From Escherichia coli (lineage in GTDB: Bacteria > Pseudomonadota > Gammaproteobacteria > Enterobacterales > Enterobacteriaceae), in NCBI RefSeq assembly GCF_044324785.1, contig NZ_CP172127.1: a stretch of DNA of 64,000 bases. One strand, written 5' to 3'. The position numbers were made by a program, and so were the translations under genes. The notes under the pieces are model-generated. The model made no database searches and was not told where the DNA came from. It saw only the letters and a list, made by a program, of their open reading frames with translations. Below, piece by piece: positions 8,737-52,733 of this stretch (position 1 is its first letter; the number at the start of each line of letters is the position of its first letter).

Positions 8737-9537
8737 TTAACGTAACGAGCGACTTTCCATCGCCTCGATGAGCACCGCATCGTGTTTCAGCGTTTGCCAT
8801 GCCTGGATGACTTCTGCCGGAAAATCAACGTGAACGATAAAATCTCGCCCGCGTGGACCGTAGCCATCGCTATCATCGCGTAAACGTGGCAGCTCGCCAG
8901 TGAGTAGTGAGAGATAACGCTCAACCGGCCATAATCCTTGCAACGGATTAACAAAGATTACACTGTCTGCGTTGTTTCCTAGCTGAGGAACGAATCCGGG
9001 ATAACTTAACCAGCGAGGTGCATCGGGATTGTCCCCAGTCATACGGCGGAACGTCGCCATCGTGCGCCGCTGCATGGTGGGGTCCTGAACAACGATAGCC
9101 GTATGAACTCGTTCTACGGCCTGATTCAATAGCGCGATGCTAAAGCGTGCGTTTTCACCGCAGTTTGTTGACTGGTCTTCAATCCAGATTTTTTCATGCG
9201 GAATGTGCCAGAACTGATGAGCGATATCCGCCAGGATGGTCGCTTCTGCTCTGCCAGTGGTGCGAATAGTGTTGTAGTGCGGATGCTGTGCGATGGCACT
9301 ATACAAAAAAGTTGTCGAGTGACCGATACCACCACTAATCAGTAGAGGAATTTGCTGATCGCGGGCAATCTTGCATGCCGCATCGATAGTTGGCATAACC
9401 GCATTGCCTGCAAGGATCACGCAATCGGCCTGATACGGCATCTCACCGGAGAAATCATCCTGCGCCAGCCACTGACCGATAACATTTATGGCATCTATGG
9501 TTGCCGGCGAAAGCGTCGGAAACGGGGTAATGTTCAT
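8737..9537 (-). CDS. ydcF: DUF218-domain protein YdcF
   Basis: 266-aa ORF; position between aldA and hrpA; length matches. Confidence 0.8.
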
Positions 9538-9926
9538 GGTTCCTCCTTATCGTTTCCTTAAGAATACTGCGTGAGATAATAATGAGAAGCGGAGCACTCT
9601 GAAAGGAAGATGATGCTTTTTCTATCGCGCCATCGCGAACCAGACACTGGTTTTAGTCATACTGTATTTGCGGAGAAACTGTTGATAAAACATCTATAAC
9701 ATAATGTTCTATCATTTTTAAGTGACAGATAAGTTGGTGTGATATTTATGAAATATTCATTCTTATATTTCTCAATCAATGAGAACATTTGCAACACGCT
9801 CATTAATGGGAAATCCTTAAATTTAAATTGAATAATATCTGGCCTGAGCTATAAACTACTATCCGTCTAAGGAGACAAATTGTCCTTTTTATTCATCAAC
9901 ATAATACTATATGTCGAGAAACATAC

Positions 9927-10421
9927 ATGAAAAAAATGTTTCAACTTTTAGAAACCGCCTGGCCTGCCGTAAAAACAACAGGACTTACAGGTTGCGTAAC
10001 CGCTCCGGAAACTGAAGATAACCTTCTTTTATTAGAGGATAAATACGCAACACATATTCCAAAAGACTATCGGCAGTTATTGTCTCATTTTGGCGCATGT
10101 CATTTTGCCGATCCTCAAATTTATACTTTGAAGGATCTGGACAGATATTACCCTCTATTTTTGCAACAATGGGAAGATTATAAAAAAGAATATCCATTAT
10201 TGAACAACATTGATCCTTTTCCTGTTGGCAGTTTTGGCGATGGGAGTGTAGCTTTTCTTGACCGCAACAGCCTAAAAATTTATATTCTCATTCATGATTT
10301 TGGTATATTTTCCGATGATGTCGGTGATTTCCCTTGTGAGTTATGCTTTGAAAATTTTGGTGAGTTAGTGGAAATGCAAGTTGAAATGATTCTTTATTTA
10401 CAGCAATGTGGAGTCTCATGA
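9927..10421 (+). CDS. hypothetical protein, candidate SMI1/KNR4 (SUKH-1)-like immunity protein
   Basis: 164-aa ORF in visibly AT-rich DNA; motifs IPKDYRQLL...FG and PFPVGSFGDGSVAFLD resemble SUKH/SMI1 family signatures; weak SD, start uncertain (ATG at 9927 or 9936). Confidence 0.45.
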   Translation: MKKMFQLLETAWPAVKTTGLTGCVTAPETEDNLLLLEDKYATHIPKDYRQLLSHFGACHFADPQIYTLKDLDRYYPLFLQQWEDYKKEYPLLNNIDPFPVGSFGDGSVAFLDRNSLKIYILIHDFGIFSDDVGDFPCELCFENFGELVEMQVEMILYLQQCGVS

Positions 10422-10717
10422 AAAATAAAATCATCACTCCTGTCCTTACTGAAAACAAAGTGAATTTGATAGCAGAAAAATATTGTAAAAAGTATAATCT
10501 TAATGGCTCGCTGGCATACAAAATCACTGCTATTAAATTTCTTCCTGATGGTATGAAATCATACGACCTTGATATTCCATTATGGATGGTAGTCAGAGAT
10601 GTTAAAGGTTGGGATGATATGGAAATTACGATTTTTATTTCTGACAAAAACAGTGAAGTTCTTTGTTGCAGTAATATTTGGTATCCAGTATATCGTCCTC
10701 ATCAAGCAGATTTGTAA
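10406..10717 (+). CDS. hypothetical protein (no recognisable family)
   Basis: 103-aa ORF overlapping the preceding ORF by 16 nt, GGAG 4 nt upstream of ATG (translational coupling); AT-rich. Confidence 0.4.
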   Translation: MWSLMKNKIITPVLTENKVNLIAEKYCKKYNLNGSLAYKITAIKFLPDGMKSYDLDIPLWMVVRDVKGWDDMEITIFISDKNSEVLCCSNIWYPVYRPHQADL

Positions 10718-10763
10718 TAAGCACGTAAGGAGTATCTCCCTTGCTATTTTTCAGAATTCATAA

Positions 10764-10798
10764 AGAAAAAACCCGGCGCTAAATGCTTACCGGGTTTT
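10764..10798. terminator. rho-independent terminator downstream of hrpA (bidirectional)
   Basis: A-tract, CCCGG...CCGGG stem, T-tract; 25 nt past the hrpA stop. Confidence 0.6.
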
Positions 10799-10822
10799 AG
10801 ATTTATCAGTCAAATAGCAGGG

Positions 10823-13800
10823 TTAACCGCTAATCTGCTCCATCGCCTGCAAAATACGCTTATCTGAAATCGGATAAGGCGTACCAAGTTGTTGAGCGAA
10901 GTAACTAACGCGCAACTCTTCTATCATCCAACGGATCTCTTTCACGTCTTCATCCTCACGACGTGCGGGCGGCAGTTTGTTGATCCATTGCTGCCACGCC
11001 TGCTGGACGTTTTCGACTTTCAGCATCTGAGCACGGTCGCGATGCGGATCAACCGCCAGTTTTTCCAGCCGTTTTTCAATCGCCTGCAAATATCGCAGCG
11101 TGTCGCCCAGCCGTTTAAAACCGTTGCCAGTGACAAAACCGCGATACACCAGCCCGCCCATCTGCGCTTTAATGTCAGAAAGCCCCAGCGCCATGGTCAT
11201 ATCCACCCGCCCTTTCAGGCGTTTGTTGATATTGAACACTGCCGTAAGGATTTGCTCGACCTGCTTTGCAATATCCACCACCGTGTCGTTCAGTTCAGCG
11301 CGAACTTTTTCATGCAGCGCAGCAAAGCCTTCTTCCGTCCAGACCGGGCCACCATTGGCGTCGATCAGTTGATCCACACCGCAGGAGATACAGTCGTCGA
11401 TCAGCTCCAGCACTTTGCCATACGGGTTAAAGTACAGCCCAAGTTTGGCTTTGTTTGGCAACTTCTCATGCAAGTATTTGATTGGTGAAGGAATATTCAG
11501 CAGCAGTAAACGACGAAGACCGTTCCACATCGCTTGCTTTTGTTCCAGCGGGTTATCAAACAGTTTGATCGCCACGCTGTCGCGCTCATCCACCAACGCT
11601 GGCCACGCCTTCACTTTGTAGTTGCCACGCTTCTGTTCGTAGCTTTCCGGCAGCTGACCAAAACTCCAGATATGTAAGCCGCTCTGCTCGATACCGTCAT
11701 CCGCCACCGCAGACAGCGTTTCCTGCACTTTGCCTTTCAGAGCATCTTTCAGATCCTGTAATGAGCGCCCTTCTTTTAACTTCTTGTTTTTGTCATCCAC
11801 CACACGGAAGGTGATTTTCAGGTGATCGGGCACCTGATCCCAGTGCCAGTCTTCGCGGTCAACGGTGACGCCAGTCATCCGCCGTAGCTCTCGTTCAAGA
11901 CTGTCGAGCAACGGCAATTCCAGCGGTGTGACGCGGCCTAGAAACGCTTCGGCGTAGTTTGGCGCGGGCACAAAATTACGGCGTACTGGTTTCGGCAACG
12001 ATTTAATCAGTGCGATGATCAGTTCACGACGCAGGCCGGGGATCTGCCACTCAAACCCGTTCTCCTCAACCTGATTAAGCAGCGGCAGCGGGATATGCAC
12101 AGTCACACCGTCAGCATCCGCGCCGGGCTCAAACTGATAACTCAAACGCAGCTTGAGATTGCCCTGATGCCAGAAGTTCGGGTAATCCAGCTTGCTGATC
12201 TTTTCCGCCCCTTCTTTGATCAACATGCTCTTTTCAAAGTTGAGCAAATCAGGCGTTTCGCGGCTGACTTTTTTCCACCAGCTGTCGAAGTGACGTGCGG
12301 AGATCACATCGTGGCTGATGCGCTGGTCGTAAAACTCAAACAGCGTTTCGTCATCCACCAGAATATCGCGGCGACGTGTTTTGTGTTCCAGTTCTTCCAC
12401 TTCGGCCCGTAGTTTCAGGTTTTCACGGAAGAATGCGTGACGCGTCTGCCAGTCACCTTCCACCAGCGCATGGCGAATAAAGAGTTCACGGCATAACGCC
12501 GGATCGATCTGGCTGTAGTTGACCTTACGCGCGGCAACAATCGGCAACCCGTAAACAGTGACTTTTTCCGTTGCCATCACCGCGCCCTGCGCCCGTTCCC
12601 AGTGTGGTTCGCTGTAGGTGCGTTTAATTAAATGCTGAGCAACTGGCTCCACCCATTCTGGATCGATGCGTGCCGCAATGCGCCCCCACAGGCGGCTGGT
12701 TTCTACCAGTTCCGCCACCATTACCCATTTCGGCGGTTTTTTAAATAAGCCGGAACCGGGGAAAATGGAGAAACGCGCGTTACGTGCGCCGGTATATTCT
12801 TGTTTATCGGCATCTTTCATGCCGATATGGGAAAGTAAACCCGTCAGCAACGCAATATGAATTTCACGATACTCCGCCGGTTCGCTGTTAACCGGAATGC
12901 CAAGTTCTTTCACCACCTGGCGCAACTGGGTGTAGATATCCTGCCATTCGCGCACGCGCAGATAGTTGAGATAATCGGTACGACACAGGCGACGGAAGGC
13001 GTTTGAAGAAAGCGCCTTTTGCTGCTCGCCAAGATAATTCCACAGATTTACAAACGCGAGGAAGTCGGATTCTTTGTCGTGGAAGCGACGATGTTTTTCG
13101 TCCGATGCCTGCTGTTTGTCCATCGGTCGTTCGCGCGGATCCTGGATGGAGAGCGCGGACGTGATAATCATCGCCTCACGCACGCAGCCATGTTTTTGCG
13201 CTTCCAGCACCATACGCGCCAGACGAGGATCGACAGGCAACTGCGAGAGCTGGCGACCGAGCGGCGTCAGTTTATAGGCGCTGGCCTGTTCATCCGTGGT
13301 GATCGCGCCCAGCTCTTCGAGCAGACGCACGCCATCCTGGATATTACGTTTATCCGGTGCTTCGACAAATGGGAACGCGGCGATATCGCCCAACCCCAGC
13401 GCGGTCATCTGTAAAATAACCGAGGCCAGGTTGGTACGCAGAATCTCCGGATCGGTAAACTCCGGGCGCGAGAGGAAATCGTCTTCGGAATAGAGACGAA
13501 TACAGATCCCTTCGGACACACGACCACAGCGGCCTTTACGCTGGTTGGCAGACGCCTGCGAAATGGGCTCAATCGGCAAACGCTGCACTTTGGTGCGATA
13601 GCTGTAGCGGCTGATACGCGCCGTACCTGGGTCGATAACGTATTTAATCCCCGGTACGGTCAGCGACGTTTCCGCGACGTTGGTCGCCAGCACAATGCGC
13701 CGTCCACTGTGCGACTGGAACACGCGGTTCTGTTCGCTGTTCGAAAGCCGCGCATAAAGCGGCAAGATTTCGGTATGGCGTAAGTTCAGCTTGTTCAGCG

Positions 13801-14725
13801 CATCGGCGGTATCGCGAATTTCCCGCTCACCGCTCATAAAGATCAGAATGTCGCCGGGACTTTCCTGGCTCAGTTCGTCTACGGCGTCAAAAATCGCCTG
13901 CAACTGATCGCGCTCGGTGTCATCGGCTTCTTCAACAATCGGGCGATAGCGCACTTCCACCGGATAGGTCCGACCGGAGACTTCGATAATCGGCGCATTA
14001 TTAAAGTGGCGCGAAAAGCGTTCCGGGTCGATAGTCGCGGAAGTGATAATGATTTTTAGGTCAGGACGCCGCGGCAGCAACTCTTTCAAATAGCCGAGCA
14101 GAAAATCGATATTCAGGCTGCGTTCGTGCGCTTCGTCAATAATGATAGTGTCGTACTGCATCAGCAGGCGGTCTTGCTGGATCTCCGCCAGCAGGATACC
14201 GTCGGTCATCAGCTTGACCATCGTGTTATCACTTACGTGATCGCTGAAACGCACTTTGTAACCGATGCAACCGCCCGGCTCAGTTTTCAGCTCTTCCGCA
14301 ATACGGTTGGCCACCGTTCGTGCCGCCAGACGACGCGGCTGGGTATGGCCGATCAGCCCTTTAATCCCGCGGCCCAACTCCATACAGATTTTCGGTAGCT
14401 GAGTCGTTTTACCGGAACCCGTTTCCCCGGCGACGATCACTACCTGGTGATCACGAATTGCTTCGAGAATGTCCTGCTTTTTCTGACTAACCGGCAAATT
14501 GTCAGGATAAGTGATTTCCGGTCGTGCCGCTTCACGCAGCAGGACTTTCCCTGCCGCATGGTCAATCTCTTTCGCCATCTCCTGGAAAATGGCCTGTTGT
14601 GCATCAGGATTTTTAACCTTCTTCACGCCGTGCAGACGGCGAGAAAAACGCAGTCTGTCGCGCAGCATCAGCGAATCCAGCCGCTGCTGCAAGGCCGTAA
14701 AGGTCAATTTTTGTTGTTCTGTCAT
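10823..14725 (-). CDS. hrpA: ATP-dependent RNA helicase HrpA (DEAH-box)
   Basis: 1300-aa ORF with Walker A GETGSGKTTQLPK, DEAH (IIDEAHERS) and HA2/OB regions; synteny. Confidence 0.95.
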   Translation of the reverse strand: MTEQQKLTFTALQQRLDSLMLRDRLRFSRRLHGVKKVKNPDAQQAIFQEMAKEIDHAAGKVLLREAARPEITYPDNLPVSQKKQDILEAIRDHQVVIVAGETGSGKTTQLPKICMELGRGIKGLIGHTQPRRLAARTVANRIAEELKTEPGGCIGYKVRFSDHVSDNTMVKLMTDGILLAEIQQDRLLMQYDTIIIDEAHERSLNIDFLLGYLKELLPRRPDLKIIITSATIDPERFSRHFNNAPIIEVSGRTYPVEVRYRPIVEEADDTERDQLQAIFDAVDELSQESPGDILIFMSGEREIRDTADALNKLNLRHTEILPLYARLSNSEQNRVFQSHSGRRIVLATNVAETSLTVPGIKYVIDPGTARISRYSYRTKVQRLPIEPISQASANQRKGRCGRVSEGICIRLYSEDDFLSRPEFTDPEILRTNLASVILQMTALGLGDIAAFPFVEAPDKRNIQDGVRLLEELGAITTDEQASAYKLTPLGRQLSQLPVDPRLARMVLEAQKHGCVREAMIITSALSIQDPRERPMDKQQASDEKHRRFHDKESDFLAFVNLWNYLGEQQKALSSNAFRRLCRTDYLNYLRVREWQDIYTQLRQVVKELGIPVNSEPAEYREIHIALLTGLLSHIGMKDADKQEYTGARNARFSIFPGSGLFKKPPKWVMVAELVETSRLWGRIAARIDPEWVEPVAQHLIKRTYSEPHWERAQGAVMATEKVTVYGLPIVAARKVNYSQIDPALCRELFIRHALVEGDWQTRHAFFRENLKLRAEVEELEHKTRRRDILVDDETLFEFYDQRISHDVISARHFDSWWKKVSRETPDLLNFEKSMLIKEGAEKISKLDYPNFWHQGNLKLRLSYQFEPGADADGVTVHIPLPLLNQVEENGFEWQIPGLRRELIIALIKSLPKPVRRNFVPAPNYAEAFLGRVTPLELPLLDSLERELRRMTGVTVDREDWHWDQVPDHLKITFRVVDDKNKKLKEGRSLQDLKDALKGKVQETLSAVADDGIEQSGLHIWSFGQLPESYEQKRGNYKVKAWPALVDERDSVAIKLFDNPLEQKQAMWNGLRRLLLLNIPSPIKYLHEKLPNKAKLGLYFNPYGKVLELIDDCISCGVDQLIDANGGPVWTEEGFAALHEKVRAELNDTVVDIAKQVEQILTAVFNINKRLKGRVDMTMALGLSDIKAQMGGLVYRGFVTGNGFKRLGDTLRYLQAIEKRLEKLAVDPHRDRAQMLKVENVQQAWQQWINKLPPARREDEDVKEIRWMIEELRVSYFAQQLGTPYPISDKRILQAMEQISG

Positions 14726-49281: not shown

Positions 49282-50796
49282 TCAGGATGATTTATTCATA
49301 GCAGGAACCAACAAAAATGCGATAAATAACAGACCACTGATTAGCAGAAAGGTATCCGAAAATGCCATAGTTTGCGCCTCCCTCAGCATCAATTGACTTA
49401 ATAATTTGGTTGAAGCCAGTATTTCCGATGTCTGGTCACTTCCACTGCGATTAAAAAACAAAGCACTTCTGGAAATGAAGTCATTCACCGTATGGGGAAC
49501 AGAAACCATTTTTTCACCCATTCTCGAAAAATGAAAATTAGTTCGATTATTGAGAATAGAGCCACACAGGGCAATACCAATCGCGCCCCCAAGATTACGT
49601 GTTAAATTAAATACACCAGAGGCTAACTTCAGCCGTTCTTTTGGAATTCCCCCCAGCGTTAATGTTACGATGGGGGCCATCGCAAACTGCTGCGAAATCC
49701 CTCTAATTGCCTGTGGAAACAGTAACTCCTGCCATCCCCATTCGTGGGTTATCGGGGTAAAAAGATACATTGAAAACACAAATCCACCCAGCCCCGCCAT
49801 CAACAGCCATCGCAGATTTATTTTTTTACTTAACCAGAAGTAAAAGGGAACAGAAAATAACTGGAAAATACCTGTTGTGCAAACGGCAAAACCTATCTCT
49901 TCGGCATTTAATCCGCGAACCTGCCCCAAAAACACAGGTATTAAATATACAGTAGAGAATATCCCAACCCCTCCAGAAAAAGAAAAAAAACATCCCAGCG
50001 TGAAATTTTTATCCTTAAAAGCATGAAGATCCATTATCGGATTGGATATTGTAAGTGTACGCACAGCAAATAAAATAAAACTCACCAATGCCAGAACTGA
50101 TGTCAGCAAAATAGTATTATCATCCAGCCATCCCCAGCGCGCTCCTTCTTCAACGGTATATTCCAGACATCCCAGTGTCATGGCCAACAGGATAATACTC
50201 GGATAATCAGCAACTTTCAGTAAAGAGAGATCAGGTTTATCAAAATTAACCAGAAAAGGAATACTCAAAACTAAATATATGCCAGGTAATATATTGATAT
50301 AAAATAGCCATCGCCAGTCGAGATTATCAGTGATCCAGCCCCCCAGAGTTGGCCCTAGCGTCGGTGACAGTGAGGCCAGCGCACTGACTACCGCAGCAGC
50401 CAACCCCAGCTCTTTACCCTGGTAATAAATAAACGCCGTCGTGAAAACTAAAGGGATCATGGATGCGCCAGCCGCTCCCTGTAAAGCACGAAACAAAATC
50501 ATGATCTGAATATTCCATGCAAGTCCACACGCGATACTCATTAAAGTAAATATTCCCGCGGATAGAGTAAAAAGCCAACGAGTGGAAAATACCCGTGACA
50601 GCCACCCAGAGAGCGGAATAACAATAATCTCAGCAATTAAATAGCTGGTCTGAAGCCAGGCCATTTCGTCTTTACCTGCGGACAGACCACCACCTATTTC
50701 ATTTAGGGATGACGATACAATTTGAATATCAAGCTGAGCAATAAATAATCCCATACACATACTGGCGAAAGCAATATGTTTACGCATAGACATCAT
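49282..50796 (-). CDS. MFS transporter, DHA2 (EmrB/QacA-like, 14-TMS) family
   Basis: 504-aa hydrophobic ORF; start overlaps the upstream MFP gene stop (ATGA); visibly AT-rich; not part of the K-12 gene order I recall. Confidence 0.75.
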   Translation of the reverse strand: MMSMRKHIAFASMCMGLFIAQLDIQIVSSSLNEIGGGLSAGKDEMAWLQTSYLIAEIIVIPLSGWLSRVFSTRWLFTLSAGIFTLMSIACGLAWNIQIMILFRALQGAAGASMIPLVFTTAFIYYQGKELGLAAAVVSALASLSPTLGPTLGGWITDNLDWRWLFYINILPGIYLVLSIPFLVNFDKPDLSLLKVADYPSIILLAMTLGCLEYTVEEGARWGWLDDNTILLTSVLALVSFILFAVRTLTISNPIMDLHAFKDKNFTLGCFFSFSGGVGIFSTVYLIPVFLGQVRGLNAEEIGFAVCTTGIFQLFSVPFYFWLSKKINLRWLLMAGLGGFVFSMYLFTPITHEWGWQELLFPQAIRGISQQFAMAPIVTLTLGGIPKERLKLASGVFNLTRNLGGAIGIALCGSILNNRTNFHFSRMGEKMVSVPHTVNDFISRSALFFNRSGSDQTSEILASTKLLSQLMLREAQTMAFSDTFLLISGLLFIAFLLVPAMNKSS

Positions 50797-51824
50797 CTCT
50801 CATCAACACTGACGGTGACGGACAGTCCCGGGCGAAGAAGTTGCTTTAATTCCTTTGCGTCGTCAAATGCAATCCGTACCGGGACACGCTGAACAATTTT
50901 GGTGAAATTGCCAGTGGCATTTTCTATCGGAATCAAGCTGAAACTGGCTCCTGTCGCTGGGGAAAGGCTTTCAATGTGACCGTGAAACACTTCCCCTTTG
51001 AGAATATCAGCACGGATCTCAGCCTTCATTCCTGGCTTCATTCCCGCTATTTGGTTTTCTTTATAATTTGCATCAACCCACAACTCACTGACTGGTACTA
51101 GTGAAACTAACGATGTGCCGCCTTCCACCCAACTGCCTGTATGGGCGCTGCGGTTTGCGACAATGCCATCAATCGGCGCACGAACAAGGGTATATTCCAG
51201 ATCCAGTAGTGCCTGAGTCAAAGCGGCCTGAACTTCTTCGATACTTGCACGTACGTTTTCTTCCTGAGCAGATAAAACTGCCAGCCGTTGCTTCTCCACC
51301 ATGAAATCGTTCGCGGCTTTGCGCTCCTTTGCTGCGACCTGCTGGTAGTCAAACCTGGCGTTATCAATAATTTGTTGCGATATTGCCGCTGATTGTGCGA
51401 GTTTTTCATAACGTTCAGTATCTCGCAGGCGCTTTTGCTCCTCATGTTTTACTGCCTGCCATGTTTCACTGGCACTTTGAATTATCGACTGCTGCATCGC
51501 AATAGTGGCTTGAATGCTTTCGAGATTGGCTTTGCTACTTTTTATTTTTGCCTCAAGCCTGGCGACATTTGCACGATAATCCCGATCATCGAGACGCAGG
51601 ATAATATCGCCTTTTTTTACGCTCTGATTATCGCGCACCTCTATAGCAGAAATATAACCAGAAACTTTACTTGCCACCGTGGTGATATTACCACCAATGT
51701 AAGCATCATCCGTCGTCTGTATAAATCTTCCTTTGCTTACCCACCAGATAAAAAAGACAACGCCAGCCAAAATAATACCGATCGCTACCACCCCAATAAG
51801 CTGTTTTTTAGAAATTATCATCAC
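50793..51824 (-). CDS. HlyD/EmrA-family membrane fusion protein
   Basis: 343-aa ORF with N-terminal TM anchor, coiled-coil region and C-terminal beta-barrel-like region. Confidence 0.75.
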   Translation of the reverse strand: MMIISKKQLIGVVAIGIILAGVVFFIWWVSKGRFIQTTDDAYIGGNITTVASKVSGYISAIEVRDNQSVKKGDIILRLDDRDYRANVARLEAKIKSSKANLESIQATIAMQQSIIQSASETWQAVKHEEQKRLRDTERYEKLAQSAAISQQIIDNARFDYQQVAAKERKAANDFMVEKQRLAVLSAQEENVRASIEEVQAALTQALLDLEYTLVRAPIDGIVANRSAHTGSWVEGGTSLVSLVPVSELWVDANYKENQIAGMKPGMKAEIRADILKGEVFHGHIESLSPATGASFSLIPIENATGNFTKIVQRVPVRIAFDDAKELKQLLRPGLSVTVSVDER

Positions 51825-51917
51825 TCTTTACACCGTATATATCCGGAAACTTGCATTCGTCATATTTAAAATTTAACATGGCTTATTTGATGATTTCTGA
51901 CAAAATACCTACTGTAA

Positions 51918-52733
51918 ATGACAATCACACTGCAACCCAAAGCATCACCAGGGCATCACATTATCGGACTGGATTCGGAACATCTGAATGGAGGCACAGT
52001 TCCCTGGCATAAACATCTCTATGCCCAGTTGCTTTACCCGGCTGAAGGAGTCGTTCGTGTATGGGCTGGAGAAAGCGTCTGGCTAGTCCATGCCAGCAGC
52101 GCGCTTTGGCTGCCCCCACAAATGCCGCATAAGTTTGTTGCGACAGGCAACGTACTTTTAAAAACCGTACTGGTTTCAGAAGCGGAAAGTGAAACGCTGG
52201 GAAAAGTTTGCTTCATGACGGGTATTTCACCCCTGTTAAGAGAATTACTAATTGCAATTAACCAACTTCCACCGTCGCAAAGTACCACAGATAAACAACA
52301 GTTACGTTTTTCAGCCCTCGAGACACTGATACTTCAGGAAATAAAAATGGGGGTGAAAATGTCACTTGAACTCCCTTGGCCAAATGATGAGCGGCTACAG
52401 CAGCTTTGTGAGAATTTGCTAAACAACCAAGGGTATCTACCAACACTGGATAATCTAGCGGATAAAATTAACGTCAGTAGCCGTACACTCATGCGCTTAT
52501 TTGTTAAAGAGACGGGATTAACATTTCGCCACTGGGTTCAGCAAATGCACGTTATTTCTGCAGTGACGCTTCTTGATGATGGATATTCGTTGACCAAAAT
52601 TGCCCATCGTCTGGGCTATGCCTCAGCTGAATCGTTCGGCAATATGTTTAAGCGTCGAACGGGCTACTCGCCCGGTAAATTTACTCGTCGATTAACGATG
52701 CATGATTATGCAATCACAAGACAAATGATTTAA
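51918..52733 (+). CDS. AraC/XylS-family transcriptional regulator (cupin + HTH)
   Basis: 271-aa ORF; C-terminal AraC-type HTH (SRTLMRLFVKETGLTFRHWV...IAHRLGYASAESFGNMFKRRTGYSPGKF); divergent from the MFP-MFS pair, 93-bp shared promoter region. Confidence 0.75.
   Translation: MTITLQPKASPGHHIIGLDSEHLNGGTVPWHKHLYAQLLYPAEGVVRVWAGESVWLVHASSALWLPPQMPHKFVATGNVLLKTVLVSEAESETLGKVCFMTGISPLLRELLIAINQLPPSQSTTDKQQLRFSALETLILQEIKMGVKMSLELPWPNDERLQQLCENLLNNQGYLPTLDNLADKINVSSRTLMRLFVKETGLTFRHWVQQMHVISAVTLLDDGYSLTKIAHRLGYASAESFGNMFKRRTGYSPGKFTRRLTMHDYAITRQMI

What the first reader, a model, noticed from the sequence alone, without database searches (positions are those of the whole stretch)
9538..10822. AT-rich two-ORF islet between ydcF and hrpA with a candidate SUKH/SMI1-like immunity protein
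Seen: the spacer between the 3' end of hrpA and the 5' end of ydcF is about 1.28 kb and much more AT-rich than the flanking genes. It holds two same-strand ORFs (164 and 103 aa) that overlap by 16 nt, with GGAG 4 nt before the second ATG. The 164-aa product carries IPKDYRQLLSHFG and PFPVGSFGDGSVAFLD (h.hG..G.GD.h.hD-like) patterns that resemble SMI1/KNR4 (SUKH-1) immunity proteins of polymorphic-toxin, CDI and T6SS systems. The 103-aa product matches no family I recognise. Knowledge: as I recall, K-12 has only a short hrpA-ydcF spacer and no gene there. Inference: a horizontally acquired orphan immunity pair, or a small toxin/antitoxin-like or defence module, with no cognate toxin in the window.
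Basis: partly seen in the sequence, partly recalled or inferred. Interest (0 to 1): 0.6.

Follow-up and report, generated by a model that had tools for sequence, protein, structure and literature searches.

The report
Orphan SUKH immunity-type gene islet
A small AT-rich insert between two core E. coli genes carries a gene of the SUKH "anti-toxin immunity" family plus a tiny unknown partner gene, with no toxin nearby; it is a fairly ordinary, already annotated, strain-variable leftover of bacterial warfare genes whose function has not been tested.

Summary
Window 9538-10822 is a 1285-bp spacer of 35% GC between ydcF and hrpA, whose flanks are about 50-54% GC. It holds two translationally coupled + strand genes.

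- **ORF1** (9927-10421, 164 aa) is a SUKH/SMI1-KNR4 protein by Pfam. RefSeq already names it so.
- **ORF2** most likely starts at 10418, giving 99 aa with an ATGA overlap. It has no database family. It belongs to a very rare family and has a confident PepSY/cystatin-like predicted fold.
- **Distribution:** K-12 has an empty 271-bp spacer. Only 185 of 5426 complete E. coli genomes carry the islet, and other strains carry different cassettes at the same site.
- **History:** E. fergusonii has the fuller arrangement ydcF-SUKH-ORF2(frameshifted)-DUF2262-hrpA, so the E. coli forms look like deletion derivatives.
- **Relatives:** ORF1's nearest relatives outside Escherichia (39-43% identity) mostly lie in long polyimmunity-type arrays of gut Clostridia.
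- **Linked genes:** No toxin, phage, plasmid, TA or defence signature is linked to the islet.
- **Selection:** dN/dS is about 0.3 against E. fergusonii, but recent changes within E. coli are nearly all nonsynonymous.

Best reading: an eroding remnant of an acquired polyimmunity-type array, that is, an orphan immunity gene plus a small inhibitor-like protein. It is a new member of a known kind, of low to moderate interest.

The parts
9538..10822 (.). AT-rich accessory islet filling the ydcF-hrpA intergenic site (1285 bp, 34.9% GC)
   Evidence: At least 80% of it is present in 185 of 5426 complete E. coli genomes. K-12 has 271 bp at this site.
9538..9610 (-). Conserved ydcF-proximal end of the spacer (about 73 bp), shared by all locus variants; presumably the ydcF 5' leader or promoter-proximal region (inference)
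   Evidence: 96-97% identical between the window, K-12, the DUF2262-type and the three-gene-type spacers.
9653..9803 (-). Gene relics. A 48-aa ORF fuses a diverged C-terminus of the 149-aa protein with the N-terminus of the 125-aa protein of the alternative three-gene cassette. RefSeq marks 66 bp here as a pseudogene fragment.
9927..10421 (+). ORF1: 164 aa, acidic (pI 4.5), cytoplasmic, SUKH-1/SMI1-KNR4 family immunity-type protein
   Evidence: Pfam SUKH_6, SUKH_5 and SMI1_KNR4. All 29 relatives tested hit SMI1_KNR4. The RefSeq name is 'SMI1/KNR4 family protein'. No hydrophobic segment. dN/dS 0.34 against E. fergusonii.
10410..10413 (+). GGAG Shine-Dalgarno for ORF2, 4 nt before the ATG at 10418
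   Evidence: Read directly from the sequence.
10418..10717 (+). ORF2: 99 aa (103 aa if started at 10406), ATGA overlap with the ORF1 stop. Member of a rare unnamed family with a PepSY/cystatin-like helix plus 4-strand fold.
10725..10744 (+). Terminator-like hairpin followed by a T-run, just after ORF2
   Evidence: Consensus scan only.
10749..10822 (-). Conserved hrpA-proximal end of the spacer. It includes the GC-rich hairpin 10770-10796 followed by a T-run on the - strand (probable hrpA terminator) and is shared with K-12.
   Evidence: 86-97% identical in all variants. The hairpin was read from the sequence. The terminator role is inferred.

Best explanation
The islet is the eroded remnant of a small, horizontally acquired, heterogeneous polyimmunity-type gene array lodged between ydcF and hrpA.

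ORF1 is an orphan SUKH-1 immunity-type protein. By analogy with its superfamily, it would sit in the cytoplasm and bind and block the C-terminal toxin domain of a polymorphic toxin injected by a competitor. Candidate delivery routes are CDI, Rhs/T6SS or similar, and the toxin is probably a nuclease.

ORF2 is co-transcribed and translationally coupled through the ATGA overlap. It is an independent cassette encoding a small cytoplasmic PepSY/cystatin-like protein, most likely a second binding or inhibitor protein rather than an obligate partner.

Shown here: family membership of ORF1, the fold class of ORF2, gene coupling, accessory and mosaic distribution, absence of a linked toxin, and long-term purifying selection.

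Inferred: toxin neutralisation, the identity of any target toxin, and expression.
For: - **Family:** ORF1 matches three SUKH Pfam models. All 29 relatives tested match SMI1_KNR4 and SUKH_6, best 8e-13.
- **Context of relatives:** its nearest relatives outside Escherichia (39-43% identity) lie in long same-strand arrays. These carry Imm51, DUF1963, DUF4241, DUF4259, DUF6881, SUKH-3 and a 2073-aa Imm68/Imm33/SUKH/SUFU polyprotein. That is the 'heterogeneous polyimmunity locus' and 'polyimmunity protein' pattern of PMC3482391, section 39.
- **Strain variability:** the site differs between strains, as that paper describes for such loci. 185 genomes carry SUKH+ORF2, 5 carry DUF2262, 587 carry three other small genes, and the rest are empty.
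- **Mosaic history:** the variants hold relics of each other, and E. fergusonii holds SUKH+ORF2+DUF2262 together.
- **Coupling:** a 4-nt overlap and a Shine-Dalgarno motif link the two genes.
- **Protein properties:** both products lack hydrophobic segments, and ORF1 is acidic.
- **No linked toxin:** none in about 75 kb of synteny.
- **Real genes:** dN/dS is 0.34 and 0.28 against E. fergusonii. Synonymous changes are 17.5 of 41 against 20% expected, p about 1e-3.
Against: - No cognate toxin was identified. No toxin-linked paralogue of ORF1 above 45% identity appeared among the 120 best of 247 hits listed from 5.8 billion proteins.
- The ORF1 relatives are in Gram-positive gut Clostridia, and whether their toxins ever reach E. 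coli is unknown.
- ORF2 relatives were never found in immunity arrays, so its immunity role is a guess from fold and position.
- Recent E. coli evolution shows 10 nonsynonymous against 2 synonymous changes. ORF2 is frameshifted in E. fergusonii, and one strain has IS1 inside ORF1. All three fit decay as well as diversifying selection.
- No + strand sigma-70-like promoter was found upstream of ORF1 by the simple scan.
- The ORF1 structure model was too poor to confirm the fold.
Confidence: 0.5

Rival explanations
1. Functionless relic: the two genes are leftovers of an old array that now drift neutrally in E. coli on the way to deletion. They confer no immunity or other benefit.
For: - The window against carrier strain 118UI shows ORF1 with 5 of 5 changes nonsynonymous and ORF2 with 5 of 7. 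ydcF shows 4 of 27 and hrpA 2 of 88, Fisher p 2e-9.
- ORF2 is frameshifted in both E. fergusonii loci.
- IS1 disrupts ORF1 in strain 2017C-4173W12.
- The neighbouring genes are already reduced to relics.
- Most E. coli genomes have lost the segment.
- No promoter-like site lies upstream of ORF1.
Against: - Both frames are intact in the window and in all five RefSeq carriers inspected.
- The exact window alleles occur on about 250 contigs.
- dN/dS is about 0.3 over the E. coli to E. fergusonii distance.
- A 164-codon frame in 35% GC DNA does not persist by chance.
- The recent counts are small: 12 changes in all.
Confidence: 0.27
2. A SUKH protein with a role unrelated to immunity, for example a Syd-like or Smi1/Knr4-like adaptor or chaperone that binds a host protein, with ORF2 as its partner or regulator.
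For: The SUKH superfamily includes members that are not immunity proteins, such as E. coli Syd, which binds SecY (PMC3113570, sections 6 and 16). In one relative context ([Eubacterium] sulci type) the SUKH gene sits among housekeeping genes next to a zinc-ribbon protein rather than in an array.
Against: - ORF1 matches the SUKH-1, SUKH-5 and SUKH-6 Pfam models; Syd-type relatives were not tested separately.
- Three of four relative contexts are polyimmunity arrays.
- Presence in 3.4% of genomes with repeated loss argues against a housekeeping role.
- The ORF1-ORF2 pairing is not conserved elsewhere.
Confidence: 0.1
3. A self-contained toxin-immunity, toxin-antitoxin or anti-phage defence pair in which ORF2 is a small toxin or effector and ORF1 its neutraliser.
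For: Two small overlapping genes in an AT-rich accessory islet is the typical layout of TA and mini-defence modules. ORF2 carries conserved D61, GWDD and CC positions that could mark a functional site.
Against: - Neither protein matches any PADLOC, Pfam or NCBIfam toxin, antitoxin or defence model.
- The ORF2 fold is an inhibitor or propeptide-type fold, not a known toxin fold.
- ORF2 relatives occur alone, without a SUKH neighbour.
- ORF1 relatives occur without ORF2.
- The E. fergusonii ORF2 is frameshifted while ORF1 is kept.
- There are no copies on phages or on true plasmids.
Confidence: 0.06

Closest known systems
SUKH-1 (SMI1/KNR4, PF09346) immunity proteins of polymorphic toxin systems, e.g. 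B. subtilis YobK (Zhang, Iyer and Aravind 2011, PMC3113570)
   Same: Profile-level sequence membership. Small, acidic and cytoplasmic. Carries the N-terminal IPxxYrxLL motif and the central GxxGDGsxxFxD motif, both among the invariant or nearly invariant columns of the family alignment.
   Different: No adjacent toxin gene. No solved structure is related by sequence. Only about 40% identical to its nearest relatives outside Escherichia, which are in Clostridia and not Proteobacteria. Function untested.
Heterogeneous polyimmunity loci and orphan immunity genes (Zhang et al. 2012, PMC3482391, section 39)
   Same: Same-strand, tightly packed small genes. Strong strain-to-strain variation at a fixed site. 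No toxin in the locus. The ORF1 relatives reside in such loci.
   Different: Only two intact genes, and only one of them belongs to a recognised immunity family. No adjacent recombinase. The array is shrinking by deletion rather than growing.
PepSY domain (PF03413) and cystatin-like inhibitor folds (FoxB 7abw, YpeB 5boi, YpmB 2gu3, M4/M36 protease propeptides)
   Different: ORF2 itself has no Pfam PepSY match. It has no signal peptide or membrane segment, whereas, from my own knowledge rather than a test here, PepSY proteins are typically extracytoplasmic. It has its own conserved GWDD and CC motifs.

Membership tests
SUKH superfamily, SUKH-1 / SMI1_KNR4 (ORF1) | Significant match to the family's sequence profiles | tested here: met
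   SUKH_6 3.4e-6, SUKH_5 2e-5, SMI1_KNR4 2.7e-5 over residues 27-129. All 29 aligned relatives match SMI1_KNR4 and SUKH_6 at E <= 0.001, best 7.9e-13. RefSeq names it an SMI1/KNR4 family protein.
SUKH superfamily, SUKH-1 / SMI1_KNR4 (ORF1) | [quoted passage not shown] | tested here: inconclusive
There is no sequence-detectable PDB relative.
SUKH immunity proteins (functional class) | Genomic linkage to a polymorphic toxin gene or residence in a polyimmunity array | tested here: inconclusive
   In E. coli there is no toxin gene in about 75 kb of synteny. The only neighbours are ORF2, gene relics and, in E. fergusonii, DUF2262. Relatives at 39-43% identity are in polyimmunity arrays in 3 of 4 contexts.
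SUKH immunity proteins (functional class) | Binds and neutralises a cognate toxin domain | not testable with these tools
   Needs binding and competition experiments. No candidate toxin was identified.
Polyimmunity locus (PMC3482391) | Tandem, same-strand, probably polycistronic genes of several immunity families | tested here: inconclusive
   Two overlapping + strand genes, but only ORF1 belongs to a recognised immunity family. ORF2 and the proteins of the alternative cassettes have no immunity-family match.
Polyimmunity locus (PMC3482391) | Gene content differs between strains of one species | tested here: met
   Four states occur at the same site: 185, 5 and 587 genomes for the three cassettes, and the remainder empty, out of 5426.
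PepSY domain PF03413 (ORF2) | Match to the Pfam profile | tested here: not met
   ORF2 has no Pfam hit even at E <= 10. Only 1 of 12 family members reaches PepSY, at 5e-4.
PepSY domain PF03413 (ORF2) | Helix plus 4-stranded sheet fold | tested here: met
   [not shown]
PepSY domain PF03413 (ORF2) | Extracytoplasmic location (signal peptide or membrane anchor), as typical of PepSY proteins (my knowledge) | tested here: not met
   The maximum 19-residue Kyte-Doolittle hydropathy is 0.63, and there is no hydrophobic N-terminus.
Toxin-antitoxin or anti-phage defence systems | Either protein matches a known toxin, antitoxin or defence model | tested here: not met
   No PADLOC hit at E <= 1. There is no NCBIfam hit and no TA-type Pfam hit.

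The most novel reading that the evidence does not exclude
ORF2 founds a new family of cytoplasmic PepSY-like inhibitor or immunity proteins, marked by conserved W, D, GWDD and CC positions. It has only about a dozen 50%-identity clusters among 1.84 billion representative proteins, and it is fused or coupled to an unknown 113-aa domain in Sebaldella-like organisms. It may protect E. coli against a toxin class for which no immunity family is yet known, either alone or as a complex with the SUKH protein.
Probability: 0.15. Interest if true: 0.45.

Novelty: new member of a known kind. Interest (0 to 1): 0.27.

Why it matters
If ORF1 and ORF2 really neutralise incoming toxins, the ydcF-hrpA site would be a small chromosomal hotspot where Escherichia strains store and swap "pre-emptive" immunity genes, apparently sourced from gut Clostridia. 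That would add an E. coli example to the acquired interbacterial defence idea and could help explain strain-level competition in the gut. ORF2 would add a new small inhibitor family. As it stands, the main gene is already correctly named in RefSeq and the biology is what would be expected for the family.

Tried and rejected
- **ORF1 structure:** the single-sequence AF2 model was too poor to use (pLDDT 45). PDB sequence searches with ORF1 or its family profile gave only chance hits.
- **ORF2 in curated libraries:** nothing in Pfam, NCBIfam, PADLOC, PHROGs or PDB sequences. BFVD viral structures gave no significant match.
- **More ORF2-family loci:** pattern scans found none in GTDB species genomes, IMG/VR or JGI metagenomes.
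- **ORF2 relatives' neighbourhoods:** the contigs are short, with unrelated neighbours (AraC/GyrI-like regulator twice, APH-like kinase, glycerate kinase, CoA-disulfide reductase, MazE, ribosomal genes). No functional theme emerged.
- **Phage or plasmid origin:** no copies on phages. The only 'plasmid' hits were a mislabelled E. coli chromosome and the Subdoligranulum array.
- **RNA element:** no Rfam match of note.
- **Antisense 119-aa ORF 10288..10647 (-):** rejected as a shadow frame, because it is broken into 66-aa and 42-aa pieces in E. fergusonii.
- **DUF2262/DUF7021 protein as a SUKH relative:** hhalign probability 0.5%, rejected.
- **Literature:** no paper mentions this locus or DUF2262.

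Full report
**1. What is there**

ydcF occupies 8737..9537 (-) and hrpA 10823..14725 (-). The spacer between them is 9538-10822, 1285 bp. Its GC content is 34.9%, against roughly 48-57% in the flanking genes.

Two + strand ORFs lie in it, opposite in orientation to both neighbours. ORF1 is 9927..10421 (164 aa). ORF2 is 10406..10717 (103 aa) in its longest form. GGAG sits at 10410-10413, 4 nt before a second ATG at 10418. That start gives a 99-aa product whose ATG overlaps the ORF1 stop as ATGA, and it is the start RefSeq annotates. I take 10418 as the real start.

A terminator-like hairpin with a T-run follows ORF2 at 10725-10744. After it comes the conserved hairpin at the hrpA 3' end, 10770-10796.

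In 2000 shuffles of the spacer, an open frame of at least 164 codons appeared once and one of at least 99 codons appeared 171 times. ORF1 is therefore non-random by length alone, while ORF2 needs other support (section 3).

**2. ORF1 is a SUKH protein**

Pfam gives SUKH_6 at 3.4e-6, SUKH_5 at 2e-5 and SMI1_KNR4 at 2.7e-5 over residues 27-129.

A word-indexed search with ORF1 alone found only Escherichia sequences. A tblastn hit in a Subdoligranulum variabile replicon (39% identity, E 5e-26) allowed a profile search that returned 247 relatives of about 150 aa at 32-45% identity. All 29 that I aligned match SMI1_KNR4 and SUKH_6, best 7.9e-13.

RefSeq already calls the protein 'SMI1/KNR4 family protein', and the exact window allele is on record on 257 contigs.

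The protein is acidic (pI 4.5) and has no hydrophobic segment. I could not confirm the fold. The single-sequence AF2 model was poor (pLDDT 45), and no solved structure is detectable by sequence.

**3. ORF2 is a rare small protein with a PepSY/cystatin-like fold**

ORF2 has no Pfam, NCBIfam, PADLOC, PHROG or PDB sequence match.

An exhaustive HMMER search of 1.84 billion representative proteins found 12 hits. Nine of them are distant, at 38-46% identity. They share conserved W56, D61, GWDD (64-67), CC (84-85) and PH positions.

ORF2 has no signal peptide or membrane segment.

Its relatives lie on short low-GC contigs with unrelated neighbours. In one contig the gene overlaps a 113-aa gene, and that gene is fused to it in P0016 and apparently in the Sebaldella protein. 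That domain has no family either.

Scans of GTDB genomes, IMG/VR and JGI metagenomes found no further members.

**4. The locus is a variable, mosaic site**

Of 5426 complete E. coli genomes:
- 185 (3.4%) carry at least 80% of the islet, all at 98.5% identity to the window.
- 5 carry a DUF7021/DUF2262 gene instead.
- 587 carry three other small genes of 125, 149 and 112 aa with no family.
- The rest, including K-12 with a 271-bp spacer and no gene, match only the conserved ends.

All variants share about 73 bp next to ydcF and about 74-99 bp next to hrpA.

The variants contain relics of one another. The DUF2262-type spacer keeps the last 14 or so codons of ORF2. The window keeps fused fragments of the 149-aa and 125-aa genes at 9653-9803 (-).

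E. fergusonii has the fuller arrangement ydcF, relic, SUKH, ORF2, DUF2262 (convergent), hrpA. Its ORF2 carries a 1-nt deletion near codon 14 in both loci examined. The window's islet is therefore a deletion derivative of an older and larger array, not a fresh two-gene insertion.

One E. coli strain has IS1 inside ORF1. Five RefSeq carriers have identical islets and nearly identical flanks, so they share one haplotype.

**5. Selection and history**

*Window against E. fergusonii.* ORF1 has dN/dS 0.34 and ORF2 (codons 15-99) 0.28. hrpA has 0.03 and ydcF 0.12. Synonymous changes make up 17.5 of 41 changes against 20% expected under neutrality, p about 0.0004-0.0013. Both frames have therefore been under purifying selection, though weakly. 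Their dS (0.10 and 0.18) is lower than that of hrpA (0.33).

*Window against E. coli 118UI.* The islet ORFs have dS 0-0.035 against 0.137 in the flanks, which is 2 of 157 against 109 of 873 synonymous sites, p 2e-6. Changes run 10 nonsynonymous to 2 synonymous, against 6 to 109 in the flanks, p 2e-9.

I read this as follows. The islet has been exchanged between lineages and species more recently than its flanks diverged, presumably by recombination through the conserved ends. Recent evolution within E. coli is either relaxed or diversifying. The counts are too small to separate those two.

**6. Context of relatives**

The Subdoligranulum homologue sits in a same-strand array with DUF1963, DUF4241, DUF5713, Imm51, DUF6966, DUF6881 and DUF4259 proteins. 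Two other relatives lie in similar arrays. One of these also encodes a 2073-aa Imm68/Imm33/SUKH/SUFU polyprotein. The other carries SUKH-3, DUF1963 and DKNYY.

These correspond to the heterogeneous polyimmunity loci and polyimmunity proteins described in PMC3482391 (section 39). That paper proposes that such loci act as pre-emptive protection against toxins of non-kin strains and notes that they differ between strains. A fourth context ([Eubacterium] sulci type) is not an array.

ORF2-like genes are absent from all these arrays. The ORF1-ORF2 pairing is therefore specific to Escherichia, and the two genes look like independent cassettes.

**7. What is not there**

- No rhs, cdiA, T6SS or other toxin gene lies in the roughly 75 kb syntenic to the window in a carrier strain.
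- There is no defence or TA model match.
- There are no phage copies and no true plasmid copies.
- There is no Rfam element.
- No + strand promoter-like site lies upstream of ORF1 in a simple scan. The islet's AT-richness makes H-NS silencing plausible, which is inference only.

**8. Verdict**

The best-supported explanation, at confidence about 0.5, is an eroding remnant of an acquired polyimmunity-type array. It consists of an orphan SUKH immunity-type gene plus a translationally coupled small PepSY-like protein that may be a second inhibitor.

The main rival, at about 0.27, is that the genes are now functionless relics. A role for the SUKH protein unrelated to immunity (about 0.1) and a self-contained TA or defence pair (about 0.06) are less likely.

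ORF1 is a member of SUKH by sequence. Its immunity function is inferred and untested. ORF2 works, at most, like a PepSY/cystatin-type binder. It is not a Pfam PepSY member and lacks the usual extracytoplasmic location.

Novelty: a new member of a known kind. The main gene is already correctly named in RefSeq, and nothing has been published on the locus. Interest is low to moderate.

Noticed in passing
window 49282-52733: A second accessory islet: an EmrB-like DHA2 MFS efflux pump (503 aa, TIGR00711 2e-121), an EmrA-like adaptor (342 aa) and a divergent AraC-family regulator (271 aa) lie between dgcM and abgR. Carrier strain 118UI has only smrA at that position.
   Followed up: partly
window 23774-31459 (-): A single 2561-aa open frame lies at the ydbA autotransporter position. 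The homologue in strain 118UI is 1939 aa. From memory, K-12 ydbA is an IS-disrupted pseudogene.
   Followed up: no
[not shown]
   Followed up: partly
L024 4811-5611 compared with window 8737-9537: ydcF is unusually diverged between the window and E. fergusonii: 77% nucleotide identity and dS 1.26, against 93% and dS 0.33 for the adjacent hrpA. aldA is also absent from the E. fergusonii locus. This suggests an old recombination or replacement boundary right at the islet.
   Followed up: no
L011 106-769; P0016: In low-GC organisms the ORF2-like gene is translationally coupled to a 113-aa domain with no known family, and in P0016 and the Sebaldella termitidis protein D1AJU5 it appears fused to it. 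Two other relatives sit near AraC/GyrI-like (Cass2) regulators.
   Followed up: partly
L015 9997-14465: A giant polyimmunity protein (2073 aa; Imm68, Imm33, SUKH, DUF4261, SUFU, DUF7832, DUF4253 and more) closes the Clostridia array that holds an ORF1 relative.
   Followed up: no
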